Part shown: positions 3,149-19,226 of the stretch, piece after piece
Layout of the letters: each line of letters begins with the position of its first letter
How positions within the stretch are numbered: the stretch's first letter is position 1
Virus record (IMG/VR): IMGVR_UViG_3300023174_000001
Location: 71,070-135,069 of that record
DNA: 64,000 nt
Direction: 5' to 3' (one strand)
Origin: a virus
Translations under genes and position numbers: made by a program
Notes under the pieces: generated by a model
What the model was told of the DNA's origin: nothing
The model's database searches: none
Seen by the model: the letters and a program-made list of their open reading frames with translations, nothing else

Positions 3149-3164
3149 GAATAGGAGACCAATT

Positions 3165-4202
3165 ATGACTACAATCAACCCAACACAAACACCAACCCAG
3201 CAAGCAGTTGCTTGGACACGAGACCAAGTTAGATTGCACCCTAATCTGCCAGAACTACTAAACGCAGTCGTGGGTCAAACTCTAAACTCGGTTTCTGCAT
3301 CTGACCTTAACCTTGTATTTGACGAGACAACTGGTAAAGCAGTTATTCGTAATCGTGATGCAAATCCAGTTAGGAAAATTATGAACGCAGTCGATGCTCT
3401 CGCTGGCGAAAGTTTTTACCTGCGACCAAATGGTCACAAGTATTACACTCGCTCGTGGGGTCAGCACACTGATGTTGAAGTTGTTCGCAACCAAAGAGCC
3501 AGTGAGCGTGGAAAATCAATCCTGCTCTATGGTGCTCCGGGAACTGGCAAGACTGCTATGTTCGAGGGTGCGTTTGGTGACGACCTAATCACAGTTCTTG
3601 GAACTGGCGACACCGAAGTTGGCGACCTAGTTGGTGGCTATGTTCAAACTGTTGCTGGTGGATTCGAGTGGATTGATGGGCCGCTGGTTCAAGCAGCAGA
3701 GCAAGGTAAAGTTTTGCTCATTGACGAGATTGGTCTAATCGACCCTAAGGTCTTGTCTGTTGTTTATGGACTTATGGATGGTCGTAAAGAACTCAAAGTA
3801 ACTGCCAACCCTGAACGAGCAATCGTTAAGGCACAGCCGGGATTCTTTGTGGTTGCTGCGACTAACCCAAATGCTCCGGGAGTAAATCTTTCAGAGGCAC
3901 TTCTATCTCGCTTTGGTATTCAAGCAGAAATGACAACTGACTGGTCGCTTGCTCGTAAGTTAGGCGTTCCAGCACAAGCAGTAACTTGTGCACAGAACCT
4001 GTTCAAAAAGCAACAGTCTGACGAGGTCAACTGGTCTCCACAGATGCGTGAACTTTTGGACTTCCGTGACATCGCAGAAGACTTGGGAACTGAATGGGCT
4101 GTAAGCAATCTAATTGCTCAAGCACCATTCGAGGACAGAGCGATTGTCGCAGATGTATTTACTCGTGTCTTTGGCACAGAGTTCAAGCCAGCCAAAATCT
4201 AG
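3165..4202 (+). CDS. MoxR/CbbQ-type AAA+ ATPase
   Basis: Walker A GAPGTGKT, Walker B LLIDE, sensor-1 ATNP, LSEALLSRF, and the FEWIDGPL insert. Confidence 0.92.
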   Translation: MTTINPTQTPTQQAVAWTRDQVRLHPNLPELLNAVVGQTLNSVSASDLNLVFDETTGKAVIRNRDANPVRKIMNAVDALAGESFYLRPNGHKYYTRSWGQHTDVEVVRNQRASERGKSILLYGAPGTGKTAMFEGAFGDDLITVLGTGDTEVGDLVGGYVQTVAGGFEWIDGPLVQAAEQGKVLLIDEIGLIDPKVLSVVYGLMDGRKELKVTANPERAIVKAQPGFFVVAATNPNAPGVNLSEALLSRFGIQAEMTTDWSLARKLGVPAQAVTCAQNLFKKQQSDEVNWSPQMRELLDFRDIAEDLGTEWAVSNLIAQAPFEDRAIVADVFTRVFGTEFKPAKI

Positions 4203-4356
4203 GTCTCCCAAACAGAGATTTTGGCTAAAGGGGGGGAGTGGGTCGACAAAATCCCCACTCCCTCTACCCCAAAAAAAGTTTTGAAAAATAGGGAATAATA
4301 CTTGACTAATGTCAGTTATAACTTATACAATGTAGTTATTACACGAAAGGACTCAA

Positions 4357-6225
4357 ATGAGCCACTACAAATTAGATACTAAGCCAGTAGGTCGCACGCA
4401 CTATGACTGGCTAGGCGTTGGTGCTAGCGTTGGAAAACTGGTCAACCAGTGGTCGCTACGCAACGACCTAGTTGTTGGTCTGGTCGAAGAGACCACCATT
4501 GGTGCACCTGCTTGTTTCAACCCTGCTAGTGCCGAGATTGAAGTTTGCATCAGCAAAGCATTTGGCAATGGAACTACTGCCAAAGAAGTTGGCGAACTAA
4601 CTCAACGCAAGAACCAACTAAAGCACGCTGTTGCGACTGGTGCGATTTATCACGAGGCACTTCACGCTCGTGTTTCACGCTGGTCATTAGAGCAAGCATC
4701 CAAAGACCTAACTGCGAGAGAGTGGCGTTTCCTAAACTCTATGGAAGAGTCTCGTATCGAGTTCTGGGGTTGCAAGTATGTTCCACAGAACAGAACCCTA
4801 CTTCGTGCTTGTGCGATTGAGATTGTCATTGGCGACTTGGAATCACACATTGAAAATGTTTCTAAGGTTGATGCCGCTGCGAACCTTGCGTTGCTAACTT
4901 TGGCTCGTGTTGATGCTGGCGTTCTAGACGAGAGAGACATTGTTGACTCTGTTCAGAAAATCCTTACCGAAGTTTTGAGCGAAGAAGTTATTTCTAAGTT
5001 GCGTGCTATCTGGAAAGATTTCCAGAACCACCAAGACCACGCTAACGCTCTTCCACTTTACGACCTAACTCGTGAGTTCCTAAAAGTTCTAGACGAGCGT
5101 AAAGAAGAGACTGGCGAAGAAGAGGGTCAAGAACCAGAGGGCGAATGTGGCAAGCCGGGTGGAGAGCCGGGCACTGGAACTGGTAAGGGCGAACCTACAC
5201 CAGAACAGATTAAAGAGTTCAAGGACTTTATCGAAAAGGTCAAGGATGCTATCCAAGACATCAAAGAGCAGGTTCAGATTGCTAACCAGACTGAACTAGA
5301 CGATGAACTCGATGCAGAAGAACGCAAAGAAGAAGTCGAGGCTCGTGAGCAAAAAGCAAACCAGCAGAAAGAAAACAAGAAAGAATCTAAAAAGGTTTTT
5401 GACAACACCTCAACTGATTCTCACATCACCACTGCTGGAACTAAATCACGCTTAGTTGAATCTCGTAATCCAACTGGCGATGAAGTTGCTAGTGCTAATC
5501 GAATTGCTAACGCTCTGCGTAAAGCAAAGTATCGTGAGCGTTCACAGACTCGCATTGGTAGTGTTGTTCCACCGGGTCGCTTGCGTTCTCGTGCTGTCGT
5601 TCAAGGTCAAGCACAAAAGGCTCGTGGTATCTTCACACCAGTCGAGGCTTGGAGAACTACTAAGCGTAAGACCACAGAAGACCCTACGCTGAATGTTGGC
5701 ATTATGGTTGACATCTCTGGCTCTATGCGACCAGCAATGACACCAATGGCTATTACTGCTTGGGTTATGTCAGAGGCTGTTCACAGAGTTCAGGGCAAGT
5801 CAGCAATGGTCTACTATGGTCAGGATGTATTCGCACCACTTAAGCCGGGACAGCGTTTGACTAAGGTCAACACTTTCACAGCACCAGACTCTACCGAAGA
5901 GTTTGATAGAGCGTTCAAGGCTCTAGACGGTGGCTTGGGTATCACTCACGCTGACGGTGCTAAGTTGCTTGTGATTGTTTCTGACGGTCATTACCGACCT
6001 GACCAGAAAGCAAAAGCACGCAAGATGCTGAAAGAGGCTGACCGTAATGGCGTGGCTATTCTGTGGTTGACCTTTGACGGTAAAGTTGCTGAACCGACTG
6101 AACTGTTGAGCGGAACTGCTGGCAAGGTTGTATCACTGGCGAGCAACGAATCACCGACCAGAGCATCACAGGTTATCGGTGAGACCGCAGCCAAAGTTCT
6201 GTCGGCTATCGGTTCAAGGGTCTAA
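4357..6225 (+). CDS. CobT-like vWA protein with N-terminal HExxH metallopeptidase-like domain
   Basis: AIYHEALH...NSMEESRIE; acidic Gly-rich linker; MIDAS DISGS and LLVIVSDG. Confidence 0.88.
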   Translation: MSHYKLDTKPVGRTHYDWLGVGASVGKLVNQWSLRNDLVVGLVEETTIGAPACFNPASAEIEVCISKAFGNGTTAKEVGELTQRKNQLKHAVATGAIYHEALHARVSRWSLEQASKDLTAREWRFLNSMEESRIEFWGCKYVPQNRTLLRACAIEIVIGDLESHIENVSKVDAAANLALLTLARVDAGVLDERDIVDSVQKILTEVLSEEVISKLRAIWKDFQNHQDHANALPLYDLTREFLKVLDERKEETGEEEGQEPEGECGKPGGEPGTGTGKGEPTPEQIKEFKDFIEKVKDAIQDIKEQVQIANQTELDDELDAEERKEEVEAREQKANQQKENKKESKKVFDNTSTDSHITTAGTKSRLVESRNPTGDEVASANRIANALRKAKYRERSQTRIGSVVPPGRLRSRAVVQGQAQKARGIFTPVEAWRTTKRKTTEDPTLNVGIMVDISGSMRPAMTPMAITAWVMSEAVHRVQGKSAMVYYGQDVFAPLKPGQRLTKVNTFTAPDSTEEFDRAFKALDGGLGITHADGAKLLVIVSDGHYRPDQKAKARKMLKEADRNGVAILWLTFDGKVAEPTELLSGTAGKVVSLASNESPTRASQVIGETAAKVLSAIGSRV

Positions 6226-6354
6226 CGGCTCGTGTAGGGGTCGGCTTGCTAAACGGCAAGCCTATCCCTATAATAAATAACGGCAAGCCTAACGGCTCGC
6301 CTAAACGACAAAGAGACGGCAAGCGTAATGGCGTGCCAGATAAGGAGACTCACG

Positions 6355-6768
6355 GTGGGTCAGTATCACATTTTAGTAAACATAGATAAGCAGGAGTGGG
6401 TAGACCCTCACGGCTTAGGTCTAGGCTCAAAGCAATGGGAGAGTCAGGTTGGTTGCGAGGGTTCGCTATCAGACGCTATGTATGTCCTCACAATGACAAG
6501 CCCGGATAGTGGTGGTGGAGATTTACCACGCACAGACATTTCAGGTCGCTGGTGTGGAGATAGGGTTTTGATTGTAGGAGACTACACAGGGGCAGATGCA
6601 GTTCCAGGATTTACTGGGGCTGACGCTATCTACCAACTGGCTACGCAAAGTCCTGATTACAAGAACATAACTGGCGAAGTTCGTGAGGCGTTCTCCAAAA
6701 TCTTCGAGATTGCTTATGTCCAAGAGAACATTGGCAGTCATACATTCTGGAAGAGAACTCTGGTCTAG
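6355..6768 (+). CDS. Conserved hypothetical phage protein (MGQY..N.DK.E / GRW.GDR...GDY type)
   Basis: GTG start after TAAGGAG; recognisable motif set. Confidence 0.75.
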   Translation: MGQYHILVNIDKQEWVDPHGLGLGSKQWESQVGCEGSLSDAMYVLTMTSPDSGGGDLPRTDISGRWCGDRVLIVGDYTGADAVPGFTGADAIYQLATQSPDYKNITGEVREAFSKIFEIAYVQENIGSHTFWKRTLV

Positions 6769-6783
6769 CCTCTAAATAAAATA

Positions 6784-6811
6784 ATCCCCTGCGAGTCAGG
6801 GGATTTTTTAT
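6784..6811 (+). terminator. Rho-independent terminator; similar ones at ~10561, 11706, 12961, 14423, 15192, 16380, 17998, 20738, 23021, 25423
   Basis: ATCCCCTG-loop-CAGGGGAT followed by a T run; GC hairpin plus U tract after most cassettes. Confidence 0.8.
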
Positions 6812-7002
6812 GCTCGAAAAATAGGGTGTCCACTTTTTCCATGCAAGATGGTTTCCATGCTTCGCATGGAAAAACACAAGACCCTAGTGCTTCTTATGCT
6901 TTTTCTTCTCCCTCTGGGCTCATCTTCCTGTTCGCTAGGGGCGAACAAGAAACATTGACAATCAGGAATGAAATGCCATACGCTTAGGTTATAGTTAGAG
7001 TA

Positions 7003-7308
7003 ATGACAAAACGATTGGAGACCAAAATGGAATACTCAACCCTTTTCCCAACAGTAGTTCTAGTTGCTCGCTCTCAGGGCGAGCGTGGGCAGTATGGTGG
7101 CAGAAAGGCATACAAGATTTATGTAAGCAAGTTTTCAGATAATCGCTGGTGCGTGTTTATGTCTTGGGGCAAAGAAGAAATGCCTAACTCTTGGATGGGC
7201 AGTGAAAAGATTTTTGCCACAGAGCAGAGAGCAGTTCAGTTTGCTTGGGACAAGTTCTACGAGAAGATTGACAAAGGCTACACAGAACGAGTTTTTGAAA
7301 CTAATTAA
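7003..7308 (+). CDS. WGR-domain-like protein
   Basis: YKIYV..WCVFMSWGK....EKIFAT...A......EKIDKGY. Confidence 0.7.
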   Translation: MTKRLETKMEYSTLFPTVVLVARSQGERGQYGGRKAYKIYVSKFSDNRWCVFMSWGKEEMPNSWMGSEKIFATEQRAVQFAWDKFYEKIDKGYTERVFETN

Positions 7309-7388
7309 AAATAAACTTGACATTTGGGAATAAATCCTGAATAATCTAGTTATAGTTATTATAGAAGTTCTTTTGAAAGGAGAACAGA

Positions 7389-7622
7389 ATGGCTGAACGA
7401 TTCACCACTCAGGTAATAAAGGTAAGCACAGACGCAGACTACGCTATGTGGATTGCCGAAGATGGCTCTTATGGAATGTCCGACATACTCGTATTTAGAG
7501 AAGAAGACTTGGAAGACGAGCACTGGGAGATTTTCAATGAACTCGGAGACAACGAGAGATTTGAGTTCGTCAAAGCAGTAATAAACAAAGAAGACCTATC
7601 ACAATGGAAAGAGCAGGTATAA
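7389..7622 (+). CDS. Hypothetical acidic protein
   Basis: GAAAGGAG RBS; promoter upstream. Confidence 0.75.
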   Translation: MAERFTTQVIKVSTDADYAMWIAEDGSYGMSDILVFREEDLEDEHWEIFNELGDNERFEFVKAVINKEDLSQWKEQV

Positions 7623-7624
7623 AA

Positions 7625-7924
7625 ATGAACGAAGAGTTCAAGTGCCCTACTTGTAGTGGCTACATCCCTAACAACGATAACATTGGTGCTTACGCTGGTG
7701 CTATCTCTCGCAAAGACAACAAGACTGAAATCTGTTCCGCTTGTGGAATGGATGAGGCTCTTGCTGACTTCAAGCAACATCTCAGAAAAGAATCTGGTAT
7801 CGCTTGGCAGTCAACTGTTTTGGAAGAAATGGTTGAGCACCTAGACGACAACGAGATTTCATTACTCGTCAACGCTCTAAATGACGCAGTTGCCGAAATC
7901 TGTGAGTCATACGACATCAAGTAA
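7625..7924 (+). CDS. Zn-ribbon protein
   Basis: CPTC...GAISRKDNKTEICSACG..EA motif. Confidence 0.75.
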   Translation: MNEEFKCPTCSGYIPNNDNIGAYAGAISRKDNKTEICSACGMDEALADFKQHLRKESGIAWQSTVLEEMVEHLDDNEISLLVNALNDAVAEICESYDIK

Positions 7925-8016
7925 AAACTTAGGCGTGTTGGGCTTGACAAATGTCAGCCCAGCACCCTATACTAAATAAGTAATAATAAAAGTTCTCTTG
8001 AAAGGAGACCTGCCAA

Positions 8017-8424
8017 ATGGCAAACTACTACGAATCAGCACGCACCAACTACTTCTTGGTTAAGGACATTGACGCGTTCAAGAAAGAACTTGAAATGGTC
8101 AAGTCTCTTGAAGTGTGTGTCGAACACAAGAACCTGAAAGATTATGTCTGCTTGCTCGGTGACAGCGAGGGTGGATTTGCTTTCGACTACTATGACGACA
8201 GCCTAGAAGATTACATTGAAATCGACTGGGAGGGTATTTTCAAAAAGCACCTACAAGATGATTCAGTAGCAATCATTATGGGTGCTGGTTCAGAGAAACT
8301 CCGTTACATTCGTGGCTACGCCTATGCGTTCAACAACAAGGGTGAGACCAAGTTCCTCAGCCTAGACGACATCTACGAAATGGCTAAGCCTCTTGGCTCA
8401 GACATTCAGAAAGCAGAATACTAA
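8017..8424 (+). CDS. Conserved hypothetical phage protein
   Basis: MANY...RTNYF.VKD...GSEKLRY motifs; strong RBS. Confidence 0.8.
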   Translation: MANYYESARTNYFLVKDIDAFKKELEMVKSLEVCVEHKNLKDYVCLLGDSEGGFAFDYYDDSLEDYIEIDWEGIFKKHLQDDSVAIIMGAGSEKLRYIRGYAYAFNNKGETKFLSLDDIYEMAKPLGSDIQKAEY

Positions 8425-8425
8425 A

Positions 8426-8755
8426 ATGGAAACTAAAATCACTAAGCACACTTTCTATCCAGATGGAGAGAATGGCAACATCCCTGATGTTGAGTTAGTC
8501 AGCGTTCTAGGAGACGACAGAGACATGAGTGCTCACTTCCTATGGCGTGGCACTAAGCAATGGCTCGCTATGAGCAAGGACAACCCTTATGGCGATAACC
8601 AATGGCTAGTAGTCGAGACTGACTACTCCGAAGAGTTCCAAGAGTGGCTTGACGAAGAGTTGAGTGGCTATGACAGTTTGGAAACTATGTTTGGCACGAT
8701 AGATTTTCTGCCTAACGAGTCCTACCTATTTATTGTAGAAAGAGCAGGTGTCTAA
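8426..8755 (+). CDS. Hypothetical protein
   Basis: Tightly coupled to its neighbours. Confidence 0.7.
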   Translation: METKITKHTFYPDGENGNIPDVELVSVLGDDRDMSAHFLWRGTKQWLAMSKDNPYGDNQWLVVETDYSEEFQEWLDEELSGYDSLETMFGTIDFLPNESYLFIVERAGV

Positions 8756-8979
8756 TGACACAGGTAAGCAAAGCAATCGAGTATCTATCTAAGTTAGACC
8801 CTAACGAAGAAATAGCGTTTACTGGTTATTGGGTGAAGAGTGATGTTGAGGAAAACAACAACATCAAACTTACTGACGAACAGTGGGAGACGATTTGTTG
8901 GAAACACGAAGACAACATTGAAGTCCACATTGACGAAATAGTCGAGTTGGTTTTATCACAGGAGGAAACAAATGAGTAA
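8755..8979 (+). CDS. Hypothetical acidic protein
   Basis: TAATG coupling. Confidence 0.75.
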   Translation: MTQVSKAIEYLSKLDPNEEIAFTGYWVKSDVEENNNIKLTDEQWETICWKHEDNIEVHIDEIVELVLSQEETNE

Positions 8980-9175
8980 GCAAGTTTATTTCGTAGTTTA
9001 TTACGACACCGAAGATAAGCAACTTTACCAAGACACTGGGACTTTATTGGCTCGTTTTGGTGAGGGCTCTATCTGGGACAGCGAAGAAGAAGAGTGGAAT
9101 CATGAAACAGAAATCTCTGTCTTAGCAGAGGCTCAGAACGCAATGGACACTGTAATCAGTAATACAGCAGTCTAA
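8972..9175 (+). CDS. Hypothetical acidic protein
   Basis: AGGAGG RBS; overlap coupling. Confidence 0.75.
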   Translation: MSKQVYFVVYYDTEDKQLYQDTGTLLARFGEGSIWDSEEEEWNHETEISVLAEAQNAMDTVISNTAV

Positions 9176-9277
9176 GCATTGACAGCGAGAGCCACTTACC
9201 CTATACTTGTAGGGTAGGTGGCAATCGCCATTTCAAAAAAGAAGTAAAATGATTTAGAAAAGAAAGTTGGTAACTTT

Positions 9278-9544
9278 ATGAAAAAGTTCACAGTAATCGC
9301 AGAAATAAACTTCGAGGTTTATGACACTGACGAGTTTTCGGCTGAGCGTCAAGGGCGTATTGCCCTAGCACGATTCGTTGGAGACCCTGATGCAAATGGC
9401 TACAAAGACGAATACGCAGACTTGCCTACTCCGTCTATCCATCCAATCAGAGTTAGAGTCGCAGACGAGAATGGAAAGTTCTTGGCTGGCTGGAATCCAG
9501 CAGACTTAGACGAGGCTGAACCGAAAGAAAAAGACGCAGAGTAA
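9278..9544 (+). CDS. Hypothetical protein
   Basis: Downstream of the TTGACA-N17-TATACT promoter at 9179. Confidence 0.7.
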   Translation: MKKFTVIAEINFEVYDTDEFSAERQGRIALARFVGDPDANGYKDEYADLPTPSIHPIRVRVADENGKFLAGWNPADLDEAEPKEKDAE

Positions 9545-9573
9545 TCTGCCCCGAATAGAAAGACAAAAAGACA

Positions 9574-9858
9574 ATGAACCTAGCACAAGCACTCGGTCAC
9601 ACGATTAGAAAAAATCGTCTTGCCAATGGTATGACACTCAGAGACCTGAGCGTAAAGTCAAACACTTCACTTGGCTATCTATCTGAGATTGAAAGAGGAA
9701 CGAAAGAAGTTTCTTCCACAGTCTTGGAGAGTATTGCTAAGGGATTGGGAACACCTCTCTACACGATTGTCTCAGGCTCGGCTTTGGAGATGATGTATTC
9801 ATCTACCGAAATCATTGACGAACCCAGCAGACACATGGAAAACCTAGTAACCCTATAA
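9574..9858 (+). CDS. clgR: XRE-family HTH regulator, ClgR-like
   Basis: TLRDLS....SLGYLSEIERGTKEVSS..L..I...L..PL matches the ClgR recognition-helix region (SLGYLSE[IV]ERG.KE.SS). Confidence 0.75.
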   Translation: MNLAQALGHTIRKNRLANGMTLRDLSVKSNTSLGYLSEIERGTKEVSSTVLESIAKGLGTPLYTIVSGSALEMMYSSTEIIDEPSRHMENLVTL

Positions 9859-9878
9859 AAAGCATAAGAAAGACAAAG

Positions 9879-10016
9879 ATGAATACTTTAATGATGTTGT
9901 CAAACGAATCGACTGTTGATGTGAACCTACTCGCTGAGAGTCAGGAACTATTCGACCTAATCAAAAAGAACACCCCTTACAACGAACTTTTGGAGTGGGT
10001 GAACGAGAACTTCTAG
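9879..10016 (+). CDS. Small hypothetical protein (45 aa, below the ORF-track cutoff)
   Basis: MNTLMMLSNESTVDVNLLAESQELFDLIKKNTPYNELLEWVNENF. Confidence 0.6.
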   Translation: MNTLMMLSNESTVDVNLLAESQELFDLIKKNTPYNELLEWVNENF

Positions 10017-10167
10017 TTCTCTGTGGGCGAACAAAAAAGTTTGGCATTTCGGAATAAAATGTCGTTGTATCGTGTTATAGTTTATGTAGCAAGAAAAACG
10101 AAAGTTCCGATTGCTACCTCAGACCAAAAGGCTCTGGGAAATACATAAAGACGAAGGATGTGGCAAA

Positions 10168-10491
10168 GTGGCAAAAACACTTACCCCAACTGTAAAAGGC
10201 AAGTCAGTCGAACTAGGCTGGTCTGCCGAAGTTAGACAAGCGTTAGAGAAGTATCGTAACGCCCTAGAAGCGAAGAAGGAAGCAGACAAGGCTAAGGCTG
10301 AGGCTGAGGTCATTCTTCGTGAGCAACTCGGTGACGCTGAGTTCGCTACCATTGGTGGCTCAAAGGCATTCAAGATGTCTCAGGTCATTATGGAAAGAGT
10401 GGACAACGCAAAGTTGTTAGCCGAGTTCCCAGCAGTTCACGCAGAAGTTCTGGTTGACGGTTCTTACGAGTTCATCAAGACCGTAAACTAG
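10168..10491 (+). CDS. Coiled-coil protein resembling the C-terminal region of YqaJ-like phage proteins
   Basis: GTG start; AEVILREQLGDAEFATIGG...ERVDNAKLLAEFP. Confidence 0.6.
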   Translation: MAKTLTPTVKGKSVELGWSAEVRQALEKYRNALEAKKEADKAKAEAEVILREQLGDAEFATIGGSKAFKMSQVIMERVDNAKLLAEFPAVHAEVLVDGSYEFIKTVN

Positions 10492-10498
10492 AAACGGC

Positions 10499-10590
10499 TT
10501 GGCTAGCCGTATCACCTGATACCTTAGTGCCTAAGATACACGGCTAGTCAAAACGGCAAGCCCCTTAACCGATAACGGTTAGGGGGTTTT
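10499..10590 (+). ncRNA. Candidate antisense hairpin RNA (3' UTR of 10168-10491) followed by a terminator
   Basis: 12-bp stem 10499-10510/10540-10551; the loop contains ATCACCT-GATA-CCTTAGTGCCTA, the reverse complement of the shared leader TAGGCACTAAGG-AGGTGAT. Confidence 0.5.
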
Positions 10591-11226
10591 GCTTTACCCT
10601 AACGGCTAGCCCTGCACGGATAAGACGGCAAGCACAAACGGCAAGCCCCTATACGCAATGACGGCAAGCCTTATGCGTTCTTATGTAATAAGCCCCCGCA
10701 GAAGCCAACGGGTCGTCTTTTTTACGCTCTATGTATAGACGCACACAAAAACCTGACGGGTCGTGTTTTTAAGAAACAGAAGCAGAGGAGAAGCAGAAGC
10801 CAGATGACTGATGACACATGGGGGAAAAGCATAAGACCTTATGAAATAAAGCCAGATGGAAGCGAAGATGGAAGGGAGATGGAAGCGAAGGGGGAGAAGT
10901 AAAAGCATAAGAAAGCAAAGAACCAAGCAGATGAGATAGAAGACGCAAAAAAATGTGGGTGTAAAGATTTTCCTTGCGAGCCTCAGATTTTTTGTCCATG
11001 CCTCGCATGGAAAAACAAGGGACTTGACTTTTTTTGGATTTTGTTTTTTTTGTTTTCTTTTTTTTATTTTGGATTTGGATTTGGATTTTTATTTCTCTTA
11101 TGTTTTTAATCTTGATTTGTTCCCAGTTATCGTGTTCGCCCTGAGCAAACAAAAAAGATTGGCACTAGGGAATAAAAACCTTGCTTATCGTGTTATCTTA
11201 TGTATAGGCACTAAGGAGGTGATTTT

Positions 11227-11382
11227 ATGAAGTGTAAAGTTTGGTTAGTCGTCAAGTATGACAACTCTATTCCTGCGACCTGCGTGGAGTTTGAGTGGGC
11301 AGATTTGGCTGTTGCGACTGCTTTTGTTCAATGGTTCAACCTGAACAATAGCGACAGACACGCCTCAATAGAGGCAGAGTAG
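11227..11382 (+). CDS. Small hypothetical protein (51 aa)
   Basis: ATG directly after the AAGGAGGTGA RBS; MKCKVWLVVKYDNSIP... Confidence 0.7.
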   Translation: MKCKVWLVVKYDNSIPATCVEFEWADLAVATAFVQWFNLNNSDRHASIEAE

Positions 11383-11457
11383 TCCTGAGACCTGAGCAAG
11401 TCCTAAAAAGGCTCACACACACATTTCCTGGGTCCAGGAAACTACATAGGAGACAAA

Positions 11458-11697
11458 GTGAAAAGAAAACTAGAACTGGAAGTCAAAACTGTTGATACCA
11501 TTTTGGACATTTTAGGTGGATTGCTTCACGCTGGGATGGAGATGGAAAAGTTTTTGGAAAATGAAGGGCAACCTGTTCCTAAAAAACTTAGAAAACAAAA
11601 TGCTAGAACTTTGATGGCTCACATGGAACTGGCAATGGCACTTCGTTCAGTTGAGATTGCTGAACTGGAAGAAGTGTTCGCTCTCGAACAAAACTAA
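11458..11697 (+). CDS. Hypothetical protein
   Basis: GTG start with GGAG RBS; terminator follows. Confidence 0.7.
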   Translation: MKRKLELEVKTVDTILDILGGLLHAGMEMEKFLENEGQPVPKKLRKQNARTLMAHMELAMALRSVEIAELEEVFALEQN

Positions 11698-11980
11698 ATA
11701 AAAAGATTCCACCTCGAAAGAGGTGGGATTTTTTTATCAAAAAAATAGGGTTAGAGGTTTTTCCATGCGTTCCATGAGTCCATGCCTCGCATGGAAAAAG
11801 CGACCACCTGGCTTCGCCCGGCTTCGCCCGGCTTCGCTTGCTTCTTCTGGTTCTTATGCTTTATCTGGCTGATGAGTTCTCCCTCCCTGTTCGCTGTGAG
11901 CAAACAAGAAAGTTTGCTGTATGGGAAGAAAAAGGGACTGTATTGGGTTATTATTTGTATAGGCACTAAGGAGGTGAAAA

Positions 11981-12349
11981 ATGGAAAACTTACAGACAAC
12001 AGAGGTGACGCTTACAAGCGACTGCACTTGCGTTGATGAGGATGGCAACTACATTGAAGAATGTTTTGGTTGCTGGGATGACTCTAAGTATGACTTAGGG
12101 GAGTTAGTATCAACTGTTCAGACTGAAAAAGGCTGGACTCAGGTTGCTGTCGAATACAAGGGAGTTTCATGGCGTAGAGTTTCTGGCGAGTTCTTTATGG
12201 ACTTCGATACCGAAAACTTGATTCGAGCATTCTCCCTCAATGGTGACTTCAGATTGGTATTTACCTATACCAATGGAGAGTTATCACTTGTTCGATACTC
12301 GCATGATGAGCCAACTGGGACTGGCAAGATTATCTTCAAGGCAATCTAG
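11981..12349 (+). CDS. Hypothetical protein with Cys cluster and SHDEPTG motif
   Basis: Strong RBS; CTC...ECFGCW; YSHDEPTG. Confidence 0.8.
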   Translation: MENLQTTEVTLTSDCTCVDEDGNYIEECFGCWDDSKYDLGELVSTVQTEKGWTQVAVEYKGVSWRRVSGEFFMDFDTENLIRAFSLNGDFRLVFTYTNGELSLVRYSHDEPTGTGKIIFKAI

Positions 12350-12471
12350 TCTCCCTAACCTGAGCAAGTTATAAAAAGGCTCAAAAAAACTTTTGGGATT
12401 CGGGAATAAAAACTGAGTTCCTAGTGTTATAGTTATTGTAGTTCGAAAAAAGTTTCTTGAAAGGAGACCCC

Positions 12472-12936
12472 ATGAACAACACCCTAACCCCGGCGAGCGA
12501 GCGTCAAATCTCGTTCCTTAACTCTCTACTTGCTGAGCGTGAGAACACGCTAGTCGTAGAGTTCGCTGGCTTGACTTCTAAGCAAGCCTCAGAGTTCATT
12601 GGGACTCTAATCAACGCCCCTAAGCGTGTTGCTGGTGTTCGTGCCGACTTCCCGGTTTTAGAGGGTATGTATCGCAACAACGCTGGCGTTATCTACAAGG
12701 TTCAGGCTAGCCGAGAGACTGGTCGCCTTTACGCCAAGTTCCTTGATGTTGCTATGCGTAAGTTCGAGTTCGAGGCTGGTGCAATGCGTAACCTCAGTGC
12801 CGAAATGCGTATGAGCGTGGAGGAGGCTAAGGCGTTCGGTGTCGAATACGGTTTCTGCGTAGTCTGTGGAAAGTTCCTTACCGACCCTGTATCTGTTGCT
12901 CAGGGTATCGGCCCGGTCTGTATCACTAAGGTCTAA
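12472..12936 (+). CDS. DUF6011-like Zn-ribbon protein
   Basis: N-terminal PASERQ..FL..L; C-terminal CVVCGKFLTDPVSVAQGIGPVC. Confidence 0.85.
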   Translation: MNNTLTPASERQISFLNSLLAERENTLVVEFAGLTSKQASEFIGTLINAPKRVAGVRADFPVLEGMYRNNAGVIYKVQASRETGRLYAKFLDVAMRKFEFEAGAMRNLSAEMRMSVEEAKAFGVEYGFCVVCGKFLTDPVSVAQGIGPVCITKV

Positions 12937-14278
12937 GCCGATACGGTTCACCCCCTAGAAAGCCCTTGCTGGAAACGGCAAGGGTTTTTTAGTATCTGGC
13001 ACGGCTGGCTTGCTGAACACGGCTGGCAAGACTAACGGCTGGCTTGTAGAGACGGCTAGGGTTTGACGGCTGGCAAGGGTAAAGGCTTGCTAAAAGCCAA
13101 CGGCTAGCCTTTTTGACGGCTTGCTCTAACGGCTAGCCCCTTAAATGACTAACGGCTCGCCTTTATGACGGCAAGCGTGTAAATAATCAACGGCAAGCCT
13201 TATAAGAGTTAAAAAGCCAACGGTGAGCCTTTTTTGGACTGGTATGTAGGTAAGCGTGAAAAAAGCCAACGGTAAGCCTTTTTAATAAAATAATAAAAAG
13301 TCGCAAGAGGACTTGCGAAAAAGCATAAGAAATGCAAAAAAGCATAAAAAGGCGAAGAAATGCGAAAAAAGAGGCGAAGAAGCGAAGGCGAAGAAAATAA
13401 ATAAAAGCAAAAAGAGGCGAAGGCGAGGAAAAATAAAAGCATAAGACACATAGAAAAAATGGATACCTGCAAAAAAAAACTGATGCCTCAGCGAAAAAAC
13501 CTGATGCCTCAAAAAAAGATTCATGGGAAATGAAAGTTTCACTCTGGCGAAAGAAGTTTCAGGCTGGCTGAGGCTGGAAAAGTGCGTCTAGATAGGCTCT
13601 GGGAAGCCTATTCAGGCGTGAAAGCGTGAAAAGTGGGGGAAGGTGCGTAGTTTCAGGAAAAAGCGAAGGGGAGGGAGTCGAAAAGAGGGTGAGGGGTTTT
13701 TCCATGCAAGTTTTTAGTCCATGCTTCGCATGGAAAACTAGATGACCGGGCTTGCTTCCAGGTAAGCCTCCCATCCAGGATTTCCAGGGCCTGGAGGAAG
13801 AAAAAGCATAAGGATAAAGAAAAAAGCGAAGGAAGCGGCTCATCTCATGTGAAAAAGAAATGAAAAAGAAAGAAGAAAGAAAGAAAAAGCAAAAAGTATA
13901 GAAGAACTGATGAGTAAAGTCAAGCGAGTCGAAAAAAGTTTTCCATCTTGCATGGAAAATAAAGCCGCGTGCTTCACTTTGCGGCACAAGGAAGTTGAGT
14001 GGATTCATGTATCCTCAGGTCGAGGAAGAAAAAGTATAGATAATGTTTTATGTTTGTCAAGTCGATTTGTAAAAAAGTTGATGAGTCCCATGCAACTCTG
14101 CTTCTGGAAAATAGGGTAGCCGCATTTTCCATGTGCCGCAGTTTGCTTTTTCACTTGACTTTTCCTGCTTCTTGTGTTTTTTCTTATTATAACTTTTTGA
14201 TAACAGCGTCTTCAGTCGGGAATAAATGTTGGGCTTCATGGGTTATCTATCATGTAGGCACTAAGGGAGGTGATTAGT

Positions 14279-14407
14279 ATGGTCAAGTTCTATTTTATTT
14301 TTGATGGCTTCGGTTATCCACTTTGCGAGAAGCACTCAGGAGGGTTGCTTCTTGGGGTGGATACTCACCTGAGTTGTCATGCTTGCGACAAACTCGATAA
14401 GGAGTAG
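14279..14407 (+). CDS. Small Cys/His protein (42 aa)
   Basis: ATG after the shared leader; LCEKH...SCHAC. Confidence 0.6.
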   Translation: MVKFYFIFDGFGYPLCEKHSGGLLLGVDTHLSCHACDKLDKE

Positions 14408-14666
14408 TCGTCAGCGAAGTTGCTCCCCTGATTAAGTTCAGGGGGGCAATTTTTTTTGCATGGGCAGGAAAAAAGTTGCCGTGCGTGCATGGAAACTCTT
14501 GCCGCCTGGCTTGATGCCGATACATGATGAATCGCAATGGGATTTGTGTGCCGAAGATTTTTTTTTGGAACGCCGTTTATTTTCTTTTTCTTTTTTTCTG
14601 CAACACGGGAATAATTTGTCACCTGTGAGTGTTATTATATATGTAGGCACTAAGGAGGTGATTGAT

Positions 14667-14864
14667 ATGGCAAAAACTTACAAGATTGGACTTGTGTTTT
14701 CTTTCGAACCTGAGGGAGAACACGCCGACATCTTCGAGGGCATGGACAAGACCGAGGAACAACTCATCGTGTTAATGAAGAACCTCGTGTGTGAGGACAT
14801 CGATAGATATGTGAAATACAACGAAGTCTTCGAAGGTCTTTCAGTAGAAATTATAGAAGAGTAA
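14667..14864 (+). CDS. Hypothetical protein
   Basis: True start follows the shared leader (the ORF track extends it spuriously to 14460). Confidence 0.75.
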   Translation: MAKTYKIGLVFSFEPEGEHADIFEGMDKTEEQLIVLMKNLVCEDIDRYVKYNEVFEGLSVEIIEE

Positions 14865-14942
14865 TCTTCGCCGAACCCTCTGGGAATAATTTGTCAGGGG
14901 GTTCGGTTAATATCTTTATAGGCACTAAGGGAGGTGAGAACT

Positions 14943-15167
14943 ATGGAACTAACAGAACTAGAAGCATTAGCAGTAAAGTCTATCTACACCGATTACCACG
15001 CTGGAGCAACTAACGCCGATGAAGCGTTGCACGCTTTAGAACAACTAATCAATGGCGGGCTAACACCTTGCGACAAGTGTGGCGACAAGATACAGACAGA
15101 TATCCACGCCGAAGAACTCGGTATGTGCGTTGATTGCTCTAACGAGTATTTCAGTCATGAAGAGTAG
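14943..15167 (+). CDS. Zn-finger-like hypothetical protein
   Basis: CDKC...EELGMCVDC; shared leader. Confidence 0.75.
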   Translation: MELTELEALAVKSIYTDYHAGATNADEALHALEQLINGGLTPCDKCGDKIQTDIHAEELGMCVDCSNEYFSHEE

Positions 15168-15371
15168 GAACTAACGCCGACTCATCTCAAGACCCTCGAA
15201 CAGAAATGTTCGGGGGTTTTGTTTTACGCCGAGAGGCTGAGCCGCTTCCATCACGCATGGAATAAGCGGCTACCCCGGTTCGCCTCCGTGCGAGGAAAAA
15301 TACTTACGCCGATTGGGAATAAAAGTGAGGCGATTGTGGTTTATATTAATGAAGGAAGATTGGAGAAAGAA

Positions 15372-15554
15372 ATGTTTGTAGAGAAAAAAGGTGATGCTGA
15401 ACTAGCAGAACTATTTGCTTTGGGACTTATCGCCGAACCAGAAGATAATGGAACGCTTGTGTTAGTGCCGTGTGCCGACCCTGTTATGTGTGAGATACAC
15501 GGAACTTATTGGATTGAGAAAAGAATAAAAAAAGTCTTGACACCGACCAAGTAA
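15372..15554 (+). CDS. Hypothetical protein
   Basis: GGAG RBS after an ECF promoter. Confidence 0.55.
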   Translation: MFVEKKGDAELAELFALGLIAEPEDNGTLVLVPCADPVMCEIHGTYWIEKRIKKVLTPTK

Positions 15555-15594
15555 AGTTGTATAGTAGTAGTATGTCAATGAAAGGACACCGATA

Positions 15595-15813
15595 ATGAAC
15601 CAAGATAAACTAATCGCCGTTTGTGAAAAACTCTATGACAAGCGTGGTGCTAGTGCTATTTACGACTACATCAACGCTAATCACCGAGAACTAGATTGGT
15701 ATTTTTGCCAGCCTTGCGACACCGATACACCAGCAACTAACCAACTAAAATGCTTAGTTTGTGGAAGTGCCGTGCTTCTAGGGTATCAAGATAAGTTCGC
15801 CGAGTTCATGTAA
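15595..15813 (+). CDS. Zn-finger-like hypothetical protein
   Basis: CQPC...CLVCG; promoter and RBS. Confidence 0.75.
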   Translation: MNQDKLIAVCEKLYDKRGASAIYDYINANHRELDWYFCQPCDTDTPATNQLKCLVCGSAVLLGYQDKFAEFM

Positions 15814-15958
15814 TCCAAATCGAACCAAGACCTCGTGCTGAAAAGTGCGAGGTTTGGTTTTTAGCAATCCAGGTGCACGGAAAAACAGAACACCCAGGCA
15901 CTTGACAAAAAGAGTTTCATCAATAACAATAGAAACAACAACACCGAAAGGAAACAAA

Positions 15959-16090
15959 ATGAACTACGAGTTCTTATTTACAATGTGGGAGTGTATTGGT
16001 TGCCGTCTGCTTTACAACGACGAGCAAGACAAATGCACCAACTGCAAAAACAAGTGCGAGCCAATTAAAATCAAAGGCGTAAGGGCATAA
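15959..16090 (+). CDS. Small Zn-ribbon protein
   Basis: CIGC..CTNC; GAAAGGA RBS. Confidence 0.6.
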   Translation: MNYEFLFTMWECIGCRLLYNDEQDKCTNCKNKCEPIKIKGVRA

Positions 16091-16184
16091 ACTCCGTTAT
16101 CAAAAAGTTATACGGAAATGCTTGACAATGCCGTTCATTACAATAAACTAGAAGTGTAGTGAAACAACTAACAAGGAGATAAAA

Positions 16185-16364
16185 ATGAAGATTCTTATTG
16201 GATTACTAGGTATCTGGTGCTTTTGGAACGCTTTGCGTATTACCGACCAACTCGGTCATGTAATGGTTTTTGGTGGCGACCAAAGTGTTCTTTGGGCTGG
16301 ATTAGTTTTATTCTTATCTGGAACTTTTGGCTGTGTTATTGCCATCTGTGCTGAAAAGAAGTAG
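16185..16364 (+). CDS. Small membrane protein (59 aa)
   Basis: AAGGAG RBS; two hydrophobic segments. Confidence 0.65.
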   Translation: MKILIGLLGIWCFWNALRITDQLGHVMVFGGDQSVLWAGLVLFLSGTFGCVIAICAEKK

Positions 16365-16536
16365 CCAACACCGAAAAGTCCCCTCATCTCAGGTGGGGGG
16401 ATTTTTTCTGCCCATGCCATTTTGGTAGGCGGCAGGTTTTTCCATGCTCCCGTGTTGGATTTTTTTTTTCGGATACGGGAATAATTTCTCCATCATCGTG
16501 GTTGTCTTATGTATGAGCAAAGAAAGGAGAAATCCA

Positions 16537-16668
16537 ATGGACACCGACAAGAACAAAACTTGGGAAGAGTGGCTAAATACGCCTGGGAACGCTAAGAAGT
16601 TTCTAGAGTGGGTATTTGACCCTAAAGTAGATGCCGAACTAGAAGCCCTTGCAAAAGAAACCAACTAA
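16537..16668 (+). CDS. Small hypothetical protein
   Basis: GAAAGGAG RBS after an ECF promoter. Confidence 0.6.
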   Translation: MDTDKNKTWEEWLNTPGNAKKFLEWVFDPKVDAELEALAKETN

Positions 16669-16681
16669 GGAAAGAGAAACT

Positions 16682-16843
16682 GTGAGAACTAAACTAACTC
16701 AGGAAAGAATCACCGAACTGGACAAACTTGACCGAATTAGAACTTACGACTTGCTATACCGAGCGATGTCTGTGGGGCTAATTCCGTTTCAGCCGAACCT
16801 TAGGCTAAAGCGTATGGTCAGAGTAAAGAAGTCTGGCAACTAA
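16682..16843 (+). CDS. Small basic hypothetical protein
   Basis: GTG start; fills the gap between genes. Confidence 0.5.
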   Translation: MRTKLTQERITELDKLDRIRTYDLLYRAMSVGLIPFQPNLRLKRMVRVKKSGN

Positions 16844-16946
16844 AAACACCGAAAACATTTTTTACCAAATGGGAATAAAATGTCGGACTAATGTGTTATT
16901 ATCAGTATGTGAGTAATCACAAAGACAAAAAGACAAAGGAGATAAA

Positions 16947-17144
16947 GTGGCTTCATCAGCAACTTACACCGTTACACTAACGACTAACTCTACGAGTTAC
17001 ATTACAACTATCACCACTCCGTCTAGCGACGAAGAAACTATTTACGAGTTGGCGATAGAACGCATCAAAGAAGAAGATGGCTTTGATTTATCTGGACACC
17101 GATTAGTTGATACAACTTACGAAGTATTGGAAGTGTGGGACTAA
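16947..17144 (+). CDS. Hypothetical protein
   Basis: AAAGGAG RBS with GTG start. Confidence 0.7.
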   Translation: MASSATYTVTLTTNSTSYITTITTPSSDEETIYELAIERIKEEDGFDLSGHRLVDTTYEVLEVWD

Positions 17145-17146
17145 TA

Positions 17147-19224: not shown

Positions 19225-19226
19225 AA

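What the first reader, a model, noticed from the sequence alone, without database searches (positions are those of the whole stretch)
10499..10590. Hairpin RNA whose loop is antisense to the leader/Shine-Dalgarno shared by five genes
Seen: five genes start with TAGGCACTAAGG(G)AGGTGA (11205, 11960, 14255, 14644, 14919). The only inverted copy I found lies in the loop of a 12-bp stem, between the 10491 stop and its terminator. There, CCTTAGTGCCTA (10522-10533) is a perfect 12-nt complement, and ATCACCT (10511-10517) pairs with AGGTGA(T) across a short bulge. That transcript is itself under a ClgR-box/ECF promoter. Inference: a 3'-UTR-derived trans-acting RNA that silences (or times) a set of otherwise unrelated, possibly toxic, small genes tagged by a common leader, in the manner of a one-to-many RNA antitoxin.
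Basis: partly seen in the sequence, partly recalled or inferred. Interest (0 to 1): 0.82.

Follow-up and report, generated by a model that had tools for sequence, protein, structure and literature searches.

The report
Phage RNA hairpin mirroring gene leaders
An uncultured freshwater phage of actinobacteria ends one early message with an RNA hairpin whose loop mirrors the short leader in front of five small early genes; related phages have changed loop and leader together, so it is probably a phage-made RNA that switches off translation of those genes.

Summary
TAGGCACTAAGG occurs exactly five times on the + strand and once inverted in the whole 135-kb phage record. Each + copy lies 8 nt after a GGGAATAA-N16-GTTA(T/A) promoter and runs into the Shine-Dalgarno sequence. 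The inverted copy sits in a hairpin (10501-10549) between the stop codon of a conserved 107-aa gene and an intrinsic terminator.

New evidence:
- The 49-nt hairpin is 48-49/49 identical in four relative contigs whose neighbouring gene is 87-95% identical.
- Its wobble pairs work only on the + strand.
- Two more distant lineages carry different loops at this place, each complementary to a leader of that phage: 11 nt in L035, 12 nt in G003.
- Orthologues of the tagged genes in those lineages lack the tag.
- Metatranscriptome contigs join the gene to the hairpin.

Best reading, about 0.6: a 3'-UTR-borne trans-acting antisense RNA that blocks translation of the leader-tagged genes. No discrete RNA, strand or repression is shown. 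The "toxic genes / RNA antitoxin" part has no support.

This scan's unchecked AI notes report similar anti-leader hairpins in other phages. A parallel in Cluster K mycobacteriophages (SAS motif) was noticed.

The parts
10016..10078 (+). Palindrome GTTCTC-N5-GCGAAC (10016-10032) and promoter-like CGGAATAA-N16-GTTA (10050-10078) upstream of the hairpin-bearing transcript
   Evidence: Motif level only. The same promoter class precedes the five targets.
10168..10491 (+). Conserved 107-aa gene (GTG start) whose mRNA carries the hairpin in its 3' UTR
   Evidence: 16 homologues, most of them 107 aa, aligned in A2. Weak PHROG match to a RecE-like exonuclease family, E 1.1e-7.
10501..10549 (+). Anti-leader hairpin: 5' arm 10501-10513, loop 10514-10534, 3' arm 10535-10549 with a 2-nt bulge at 10540-10541
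   Evidence: Folds. 13-pair helix, 93.8% of cells paired in 5 distinct sequences, wobble pairs only on the + strand. 48-49 of 49 nt identical in relatives.
10511..10517 (+). AUCACCU, complementary to the AGGUGAU Shine-Dalgarno part of the leaders
10522..10533 (+). CCUUAGUGCCUA, exact complement of the 12-nt leader tag
10561..10595 (+). Intrinsic terminator: 11-bp G+C-rich stem, loop AUAA, then GUUUUGCUUU
   Evidence: An equivalent terminator follows the hairpins in the relatives. Not listed by the scan.
11168..11382 (+). Target 1: promoter 11168-11196, leader 11205-11222, gene 11227-11382 (51 aa)
   Evidence: Net pairing energy -8.5 kcal/mol.
11923..12349 (+). Target 2: promoter 11923-11951, leader 11960-11977, gene 11981-12349 (122 aa)
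   Evidence: RNA contigs cover the gene from 11978, 11984 and 12013. The G003 orthologue lacks the tag.
14218..14407 (+). Target 3: promoter 14218-14246, leader 14255-14273 (extra G), gene 14279-14407 (42 aa)
   Evidence: Net pairing energy -13.3 kcal/mol.
14607..14864 (+). Target 4: promoter 14607-14635, leader 14644-14661, gene 14667-14864 (65 aa)
   Evidence: The L035 orthologue (92% aa) has neither this promoter nor the tag.
14882..15167 (+). Target 5: promoter 14882-14910, leader 14919-14937 (extra G), gene 14943-15167 (74 aa)
   Evidence: The G003 orthologue has the promoter but not the tag.

Best explanation
The last ~100 nt (about 10495-10595) of the mRNA of a conserved 107-aa early gene fold into a stem-loop followed by an intrinsic terminator. 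The top of the stem and the loop read 5'-AUCACCU-GAUA-CCUUAGUGCCUA-3'. This is complementary (7 + 12 bp around a 4-nt bulge) to essentially the whole 5' UTR, UAGGCACUAAGG(G)AGGUGAU, of five small genes, each transcribed from its own GGGAATAA-N16-GTTA(T/A) promoter. I propose that this RNA, either as the 3' UTR of the full message or as a fragment processed from it, pairs in trans with those five leaders. Pairing would cover the Shine-Dalgarno sequence and the 5' end, block ribosome loading and probably expose the duplex to RNase. Regulator and targets use the same promoter class, so the likely outcome is delayed damping or shut-off of the tagged genes. Shown: the complementarity, the fold, its conservation, the strand bias of the wobble pairs, matched loop/leader differences between lineages, and presence of the hairpin in RNA-library contigs joined to the upstream gene. 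Inferred: transcription start near the TAG of the tag, action in trans, repression as the sign of the effect, and any processing.
For: (1) Six copies only in 135 kb, five + and one -. The inverted copy also carries the SD complement.
(2) It lies between a stop codon and a terminator on the strand that carries all 13 promoters of this class found in the genome. The fold has z -6.65.
(3) Conservation: the hairpin is 49/49, 48/49, 49/49 and 49/49 identical in L027, L028, L039 and L038, while the adjacent gene is 94.8, 88.3, 87.3 and 87.3% identical. The single change is C to U opposite G.
(4) Helix across 5 distinct sequences of 4 lineages: 13 pairs, 93.8% of 65 cells paired against 28-40% when slid, 3 pairs with changes on both sides, and 8 G.U/U.G cells that would be A.C on the other strand.
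(5) Matched differences. In L035 the orthologous hairpin's loop complement TAGGCAATGGG equals the leader of the orthologue of target 1. That 11-mer occurs once forward and once reverse in each of the 36-kb and 25-kb records G001 and G002, whose 3' UTR sequences are identical. In the complete 135-kb sister genome G003, the hairpin-1 loop is complementary over 12 nt to the SD region of one gene. AAGGAAGTGA occurs once forward and once reverse, and this is the best duplex site genome-wide apart from the loop's own complement (-25.8 against next -22.2). The hairpin-2 loop pairs 12 bp, one of them G.U, with the orthologue of target 2.
(6) Cognate specificity in cofolding. Window hairpin with window leaders: -16.0 and -11.9. 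With the 5 foreign leaders: 0 to -2.1. L035 with its own: -5.1, others 0. G003 hairpin 1 with its own: -12.6.
(7) With the full 98-nt RNA, net pairing is -7.3 to -13.3 kcal/mol for the 5 targets, 0 to -1.2 for 8 of 8 other transcripts of the same promoter class, and mean -0.6 (min -4.8) for 100 shuffled loops.
(8) Orthologues of targets 2, 3, 4 and 5 in G003 or L035 lack the tag, so tag and anti-tag co-occur by lineage.
(9) Contigs from three metatranscriptome runs of three studies cover the upstream gene into the hairpin (X17 to 10513, X18 to 10541, X20 to 10568 and on into the terminator).
(10) In the most distant relative, L037, the same position scores 38.8 bits against Rfam 6C RNA (gathering score 47, E 0.047). 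That sRNA family binds ribosome-binding sites through C-rich loops (PMC6486639, abstract and passages).
Against: No discrete small RNA, 5' or 3' end, strand or abundance is shown. The laid runs are contigs, which cannot show these, and RNA libraries may hold DNA.
The minimum-energy fold locks part of the anti-leader in two 5-bp mini-hairpins.
Loop-only duplex energies with the five leaders (-24.0, -23.6) are no better than the best chance sites in the genome (-25.0 and -24.8 on the - strand, -23.0 on +). The case therefore rests on exact repetition and position, not on energy.
Lineage L036 has the hairpin, but I found no target in its 34-kb fragment: only 7 nt with the first downstream leader and 0.0 kcal/mol in cofolding. 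L040 is too short to test. L196 has the gene and the terminator but no hairpin.
The G003 hairpin-2 loop is a generic anti-SD and also 'binds' foreign leaders.
11-nt complementarity between some start region and some other place is common by chance in this genome. The L035 and G003 matches count only because the loop was fixed beforehand.
Matched change of an inverted and a direct copy would also arise for co-evolving protein-binding sites or by gene conversion.
Regulator and targets share one promoter class, so the timing logic is conjecture.
Confidence: 0.6

Rival explanations
1. The 12-mer is a DNA operator for a phage or host protein. It lies at +1 of five promoters, and the sixth, inverted copy is simply another binding site. 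The flanking stem arms are inverted copies of the dispersed ACGGC(A/T)AGCC repeat, itself a protein site.
For: The tag lies at a fixed 8 nt from the -10-like element. The core TAG-GCA-CTA is partly palindromic and is extended to CTTAG-GCA-CTAAG in the inverted copy. The stem arms belong to a repeat family with 24 exact copies, 22 of them in window 600-13200. Sites for one protein would also change together between lineages. A helix-turn-helix gene lies nearby at 9574-9858.
Against: The inverted copy also keeps the 7-nt SD complement and a 4-nt spacer. All are invariant in relatives, which a 12-bp operator does not need. It always lies inside a hairpin whose stem extends beyond the repeat unit with lineage-specific complementary bases and has wobble pairs valid on one strand only. 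In G003 the loop/leader match tolerates a G.U pair, which is a mismatch at the DNA level. The 'site' would have to change from TAGGCACTAAGG to GAAAGGAAGTGA between sister phages.
Confidence: 0.12
2. The hairpin is only a cis element of the upstream message (3'-end stabiliser, terminator helper or attenuator). Its likeness to the leaders is inherited from an inverted duplication of a promoter-leader module and has no regulatory effect in trans.
For: Hairpins built from the same repeat family stand at several operon ends. The whole 735-bp intergenic region is well conserved. Lineages L036 and L196 do without a recognisable target or without the hairpin.
Against: A relic would decay. Instead 48-49 of 49 nt are kept where the neighbouring gene has diverged 5-13%. 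Two other lineages show different loops that again match their own leaders. The tag has spread to five genes whose orthologues elsewhere lack it.
Confidence: 0.13
3. The element is a phage copy of a 6C-like host-directed sRNA whose real targets are host mRNAs. Pairing with phage leaders is secondary, or serves to titrate the RNA.
For: The L037 element scores 38.8 bits on Rfam 6C. Loops in L035, L036, L040 and L037 are C-rich. 6C binds many G-rich ribosome-binding sites (PMC6486639).
Against: The window's own loop is not C-rich and gives no Rfam match at E <= 1. Its 12 + 7 nt match five phage leaders exactly. The host is unknown, so no host target could be sought.
Confidence: 0.08
4. The inverted pair (10511-10533 and 11205-11223) are crossover sites of an invertible promoter segment or other site-specific recombination.
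For: The inverted repeats flank a ~680-bp segment that holds the promoter of target 1, with the right repeat between promoter and start codon. The L035 pair flanks the homologous segment.
Against: All assemblies seen have one orientation: the window, L027, L028 and L039 and L035/L034. No strand-changing joint appears in the laid contigs. Four more direct copies would cause deletions. In G003 the pair is 4.6 kb apart and spans genes. I did not search for a recombinase.
Confidence: 0.03

Closest known systems
[quoted passage not shown]
   Same: Phage-encoded. Transcribed upstream of and in the same direction as its targets. Loop sequences complementary to ribosome-binding regions. Acts, or would act, on the phage's own genes.
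   Different: c4 acts on sites within its own operon and belongs to lysogenic immunity. Here there are five separate transcription units scattered over 3.7 kb, the element lies in the 3' UTR of a protein gene, and there is no Rfam match of any kind. The c4 paper itself was not held.
6C sRNA of actinobacteria (Rfam RF01066; PMC6486639, abstract and passages read)
   Same: Actinobacterial setting. Hairpin loops pair with ribosome-binding sites of several mRNAs. That paper reports chaperone-independent loop-to-RBS pairing. A distant relative's element at the same position nearly matches the family.
   Different: The window's loop is not C-rich. It pairs with a private 12-nt tag plus the SD rather than a G-run. 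It gives no match to the model, is phage-borne and is 3'-UTR-embedded.
Start-associated sequences (SAS) of Cluster K mycobacteriophages (PMC3203893, passages read; PMC11373665 and PMC12699233, passages read)
   Same: A short asymmetric motif fused to the ribosome-binding site of a subset of non-structural genes of unrelated families, in one orientation, with a single copy in the opposite orientation. Function unknown; the 2011 authors left open an RNA or protein partner.
   Different: Different sequence and phage group. SAS has 11-19 copies and is not tied to a promoter at a fixed distance. No antisense RNA has been proposed for SAS in the passages I read. My look at the reverse copy is preliminary.
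3'-UTR-derived base-pairing sRNAs of bacteria (CpxQ, SroC type) and icaR 3'UTR-5'UTR pairing in Staphylococcus
   Same: The seed lies between a stop codon and an intrinsic terminator and is complementary to translation-initiation regions.
   Different: Those are cellular and have diverse targets with short seeds. Here the targets carry an identical, apparently dedicated tag. Processing and chaperone need are unknown.

Membership tests
Rfam 6C RNA (RF01066) | Match to the covariance model at or above the gathering score (47 bits) | tested here: not met
   No Rfam match at E <= 1 over window 9000-16000 except two unrelated weak hits at 11656-11747. The relative L037 reaches 38.8 bits, below threshold.
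Rfam 6C RNA (RF01066) | Hairpins with C-rich loops (runs of C) | tested here: not met
   The window loop ACCUGAUACCUUAGUGCCUAA and the terminator loop AUAA have no C-run. The loops of L035, L036, L040 and L037 do.
   All 4227 Rfam families were scanned and no such hit appeared.
3'-UTR-borne trans-acting sRNA (functional class) | Lies between the stop codon of a gene and an intrinsic terminator on the coding strand | tested here: met
   Stop at 10489-10491, hairpin 10501-10549, terminator 10561-10595. The same layout occurs in relatives.
3'-UTR-borne trans-acting sRNA (functional class) | Seed complementary to target translation-initiation regions, conserved or co-varying | tested here: met
   12 + 7 nt to five leaders. 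Matched differences in L035 and G003.
3'-UTR-borne trans-acting sRNA (functional class) | Exists as RNA; a stable species with defined ends | tested here: inconclusive
   RNA-library contigs cover the gene plus the hairpin, but contigs give no ends, strand or level, and DNA carry-over is possible.
3'-UTR-borne trans-acting sRNA (functional class) | Regulates the targets in trans | not testable with these tools
   Needs reporters or infection experiments.
Type I toxin-antitoxin (RNA antitoxin) | Target encodes a small hydrophobic, membrane-active toxic peptide | tested here: not met
   The five products (51, 122, 42, 65, 74 aa) are acidic and/or Cys-rich and show no long hydrophobic stretch (sequences, read by eye). 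No Pfam hit reaches its cut-off and there is no PHROG family. Toxicity itself was not tested.
Cluster K start-associated sequence (SAS) | Consensus GGGATAGGAGCCC with <=2 deviations, 3-7 bp before start codons | tested here: not met
   The tag here is TAGGCACTAAGG. The likeness is one of arrangement only.

The most novel reading that the evidence does not exclude
Private leader tags plus a matching 'anti-tag' hairpin RNA may be a general, undescribed way in which lytic and temperate phages switch a chosen set of their own genes off after transcription. If so, the start-associated sequences of Cluster K mycobacteriophages, unexplained since 2011, would be the same device. In Anaya the single reverse-oriented SAS-like site lies in the 11-nt loop of a conserved, co-varying + strand hairpin. 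It sits in the intergenic region where, in Adephagia, late transcription is reported to start (PMC11373665, passage), so the late message would silence SAS-tagged early genes.
Probability: 0.3. Interest if true: 0.88.

Novelty: new variant of a known kind. Interest (0 to 1): 0.74.

Why it matters
Base-pairing RNAs that regulate a phage's own genes are known mainly from the immunity regions of a few temperate phages. A 3'-UTR hairpin that addresses five scattered transcription units through a dedicated tag would be a compact post-transcriptional regulon. It would show how newly acquired genes can be brought under control simply by receiving the tag: orthologues in sister phages lack it.

The natural loop/leader variants (window, L035, G003) form a ready-made set of compensatory mutants for reporter tests.

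The arrangement of many forward tags and one reverse copy in a hairpin loop also occurs with the SAS motif of Cluster K mycobacteriophages. Those phages are cultivable and can be engineered, so an open question of long standing becomes directly testable there. My full-text searches and the passages read found no description of such an anti-tag RNA. This scan's own unchecked notes report look-alikes in other phage groups.

Tried and rejected
Named relatives at the DNA level. Megablast and blastn of 9500-15500 and 9500-12500 against 50,697 phage records gave no match. By portal protein the nearest named phage is Actinomycetia phage DSL-LC01 (69.5%), followed by Microbacterium phages. The first 50 kb of DSL-LC01 hold neither the promoter class nor the tag, so it could not serve for covariation.

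Collection scans.
- The 15-mer scan of IMG/VR gave 17 stretches, of which only two contigs are relatives; the rest look like chance, including a paralogue pair in L009.
- The first protein scan found the same two contigs.
Of 118 new loci, only the already known L036 contig holds the hairpin.
- The L035 leader scan found only the two known contigs.
- TTTAACGGCTAGCCC gave one new lineage, L196, which lacks the hairpin.

Function of the genes. There is no Pfam hit above cut-off and no PHROG family for the five proteins or for the leftward ORFs at 13282-14008. The weak sub-threshold hits for the 74-aa protein (DUF1451, Ntox27, DUF7685) were not pursued.

Sigma factor. Sigma70_r2 and r4_2 are not found in the phage record.

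Energy as a criterion. Loop-only duplex energies do not separate the leaders from chance sites, and a genome-wide 11-mer screen of 130 start regions is swamped by chance hits. Both were dropped as arguments.

Reads. No cover over 10570-11977 in the three RNA runs, and RNA contigs of target 2 start at 11978, 11984 and 12013. I draw nothing from the gap. DNA run X12 covers 9500-10613 with 64 other letters, none listed within the hairpin, but 138 further differences in all runs together were not shown, so I do not count this as proof.

Papers. One search was too loose and useless. PMC312442 is not held.

Slips. Searches (wrong frame, corrected; term format; end coordinate, corrected; report sent without the confidence field, corrected and sent again).
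Full report
WHAT THE WINDOW IS. The window is the last 64 kb of a 135,069-bp virus record with direct terminal repeats. By portal protein its nearest named relatives are Actinomycetia phage DSL-LC01 from lake water (69.5%) and large Microbacterium and Arthrobacter phages. Runs holding the stretch are labelled lake, pond, aquatic and other freshwater metagenomes, two of them simply 'metagenome'. No DNA-level match exists among 50,697 deposited phages.

THE OBSERVATION. TAGGCACTAAGG is present exactly at 11205, 11960, 14255, 14644 and 14919 on the + strand and at 10522-10533 on the - strand. The whole record has only these six at <=1 mismatch, and the backwards control gives none.

Each lies exactly 8 nt after the GTTA(T/A) of a GGGAATAA-N16-GTTA promoter-like motif and runs on into (G)AGGTGA and an ATG. 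That promoter class has 8 strict matches against 0.05 expected. With one mismatch allowed it has 13, all on the + strand and all in window 2387-20820, and none elsewhere in the genome. The 8 promoters without the tag share only a TAG or TGTAG-like motif at the same distance, which is probably the start-site region. The tag proper is therefore about GCACTAAGG plus the Shine-Dalgarno sequence, and it would be the very 5' end of the five messages (inference).

On the - strand the inverted copy reads TAGGCACTAAGG-TATC-AGGTGAT, which is the entire leader with a 4-nt insertion.

THE HAIRPIN. The region 10489-10596 folds at -49.5 kcal/mol against -27.4 +/- 3.3 for shuffles (z -6.65). The fold is a stem-loop (10501-10549) followed by a G+C-rich hairpin and a U-run that I read as an intrinsic terminator; the simple scan did not list it. 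The stem arms are inverted copies of a dispersed repeat, ACGGC(A/T)AGCC. That repeat has 24 exact copies, 22 of them in window 600-13200, clustered after several genes. This raised the rival that the 'hairpin' is just two protein sites.

Two points argue against that rival.
- The stem continues beyond the repeat unit with complementary bases that differ by lineage: GTATC/GATAC, GTATCCG/CGGATAC, GTATCG/CGATAC and GTCT/AGAC.
- On an alignment of the five distinct versions, 13 pairs are 93.8% paired (28-40% when slid by 1-3 columns). Three pairs change on both sides, and eight cells are G.U or U.G, which would be A.C on the opposite strand. Five sequences are few, and the shuffle control (8 of 500) is only suggestive.

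CONSERVATION. The upstream ORF is really a 107-aa gene with 16 homologues in the protein collection. Four contigs of the window's own lineage (two IMG/VR, two metagenome) keep the 49-nt hairpin at 49/49, 48/49, 49/49 and 49/49, while the gene next to it is 94.8, 88.3, 87.3 and 87.3% identical. Insertions occur just before the hairpin and in the terminator loop. The single substitution turns a C-G pair into U-G. The spacer and the SD complement are as invariant as the 12-mer.

More distant homologues of the gene were fetched with their flanks.

- L035/L034 (59% aa). The orthologous hairpin has a different loop. Its complement, TAGGCAATGGG, is the leader of the orthologue of target 1, again 8 nt after a promoter of the same class. 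That 11-mer occurs once forward and once reverse in each of the two records, whose 3' UTR sequences are identical.
- G003, a complete 135,336-bp sister genome (63% aa). Two hairpins follow the gene. Loop 1 is complementary over 12 nt to the ribosome-binding region of one gene 4.6 kb downstream. AAGGAAGTGA occurs once forward and once reverse in the genome, and this is the best duplex site on either strand apart from the loop's own complement. Loop 2 pairs 12 bp, one of them G.U, with the leader of the orthologue of target 2, although loop 2 is close to a generic anti-SD.
- Cofolding gives cognate preference. Window hairpin: -16.0 and -11.9 with its own leaders, 0 to -2.1 with five foreign ones. 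L035: -5.1 with its own, 0 with others. G003 hairpin 1: -12.6 with its own.
- Orthologues of targets 2, 3 and 5 in G003 and of target 4 in L035 lack the tag. Tag and anti-tag therefore appear together in the window's lineage.

Results that do not fit.
- L036 (52% aa) has the hairpin, but I found no partner in its 34-kb fragment.
- L040 is too short to test.
- L196 has the gene, the repeats and the terminator but no hairpin.
- Chance 11-mer complementarity to some start region is common genome-wide, so the matches above count only because the loop was fixed in advance and the partner sits at the orthologous leader.

ENERGETICS. With the full 98-nt RNA, net pairing after paying for unfolding is -7.3 to -13.3 kcal/mol for the five targets. 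It is 0 to -1.2 for all eight other transcripts of the promoter class, and -0.6 +/- 0.6 (min -4.8) for 100 shuffled loops. Loop-only duplex energies (-24) do not stand out from the best chance sites.

EXPRESSION. Contigs of three metatranscriptome runs from three studies, all from relatives 85-99% alike, run from the 107-aa gene into the hairpin: X17 to 10513, X18 to 10541, X20 to 10568 and on into a terminator of the L027 type. They also cover target 2, and X20 covers part of target 5. Contigs give no strand, ends or level, and DNA may be present in such libraries. This shows at most that the hairpin is co-transcribed with the gene.

WHAT IT IS NOT. No Rfam family matches. The five proteins have no Pfam hit above cut-off and no PHROG family, and they do not resemble small hydrophobic toxins, so the 'toxic genes / antitoxin' idea is unsupported. 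No sigma factor gene is recognisable in the phage, so the promoter class is presumably read by a host factor (inference).

MECHANISM PROPOSED. The element is a 3'-UTR-borne antisense RNA that pairs with the whole short 5' UTR of five tagged messages and occludes the Shine-Dalgarno sequence. Probability is about 0.6. The rivals are a DNA operator (0.12), a cis-only element with inherited likeness (0.13), a host-directed 6C-like sRNA (0.08) and an invertible switch (0.03).

COMPARISON WITH WHAT IS KNOWN.
- Functionally it is closest to P1/P7 c4 RNA (title seen; mechanism recalled).
- It also resembles actinobacterial 6C sRNA, whose C-rich loops bind ribosome-binding sites of several mRNAs without a chaperone (PMC6486639). 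The most distant relative's element at this position nearly reaches the 6C model (38.8 of 47 bits), but the window's does not match at all.
[quoted passage not shown] The function was still called unknown in 2024 and 2025 (PMC11373665 and PMC12699233).

THE CLUSTER K PARALLEL. In Anaya that reverse site lies, on the gene-sense strand, in the 11-nt loop CCUCCUAUCCC of a hairpin in the gp96-gp97 spacer. The region is found in 135 phage records. In 7 aligned phages the consensus fold has 45 pairs, 8 of them with compensatory changes, and many + strand G.U pairs. Five of the 7 keep the anti-SAS loop.

Amohnition has an altered loop, yet all 17 of its forward SAS sites (<=2 deviations) keep the core GGGATAGGAG and 12 match the consensus exactly. 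SirPhilip's loop differs. There is therefore no covariation in these two. The Adephagia paper states that late transcription appears to start between genes 92 and 93, which is the spacer holding this hairpin. This is a lead, not a result.

EARLIER NOTES OF THIS SCAN. Unchecked AI notes describe anti-leader hairpins in crAss-like, soil and lake phages and in an archaeal virus. I tested none of them, and they did not change my scores. Notes on this window about the promoter class and the palindromes were partly checked here.

VERDICT. This is a new variant of a known kind (trans-acting antisense RNA), of good interest because natural compensatory variants exist and because of the possible link to SAS.

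Noticed in passing
L055:34850-34906 (Mycobacterium phage Anaya JF704106, record about 59849-59905): The single reverse-oriented SAS-like site of this Cluster K phage lies in the 11-nt loop CCUCCUAUCCC of a conserved + strand hairpin in the gp96-gp97 spacer. Five of 7 aligned Cluster K phages keep this loop. Amohnition and SirPhilip do not, although Amohnition's 17 forward SAS sites all keep the core GGGATAGGAG (12 match the consensus exactly). In Adephagia the same spacer is where late transcription is reported to start.
   Followed up: partly
window 617-992, 1511-1668, 6252-6316, 10510-10661, 13099-13268: The dispersed repeat ACGGC(A/T)AGC(C) has 24 exact copies in the genome. 22 are in window 600-13200, almost all on the + strand, clustered after genes and often forming hairpins with its inverted form GGCTTGCC. 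Relatives, including L196, carry large arrays of it. Function unknown.
   Followed up: partly
window 10492-11226: A 735-bp gene-free region conserved in relatives. It holds a repeat array, then purine-rich AGATGGAAG-type repeats, then a T-rich stretch with GGATTT repeats, then a palindrome and a promoter. It looks like an origin or another cis-acting site.
   Followed up: no
window 1605, 2235, 6834, 11757, 13696, 16436 and 10995-11010: Recurrent motif (G)TTTTTCCATGC and its inverse GCATGGAAAAAC in several intergenic regions, seen as a by-product of the 11-mer screen. It is also visible in relatives.
   Followed up: no
L037:531-607: The 3' UTR of the most distant homologue of the 107-aa gene scores 38.8 bits (gathering score 47, E 0.047) over the full Rfam 6C model: two hairpins with C-rich loops in a phage contig.
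   Followed up: no
window 13282-14060, - strand: The only leftward unit in this region. It has a near-consensus TTGACA-16-TATACT promoter (14060-14033), ORFs of 149 and 86 aa without any family, and a terminator-like site at 13318-13301. It lies between tagged genes 2 and 3.
   Followed up: partly
window 11978-11984: RNA-library contigs of two studies covering target 2 begin at 11978 and 11984, just after the leader (11960-11977); a third begins at 12013. No DNA run covers the place, so nothing can be concluded.
   Followed up: no
L009:6239-6253 and 6758-6772: An unrelated 58-kb viral contig has the same 15-mer TAGGCACTAAGGAGG before the start codons of two tandem paralogues. This is probably chance plus duplication.
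   Followed up: no
L039:3560-3829: In a close relative the second tagged gene (begins MDNKIF) is a different gene from the window's second tagged gene. The tag with its promoter can therefore sit in front of different genes in different relatives.
   Followed up: no
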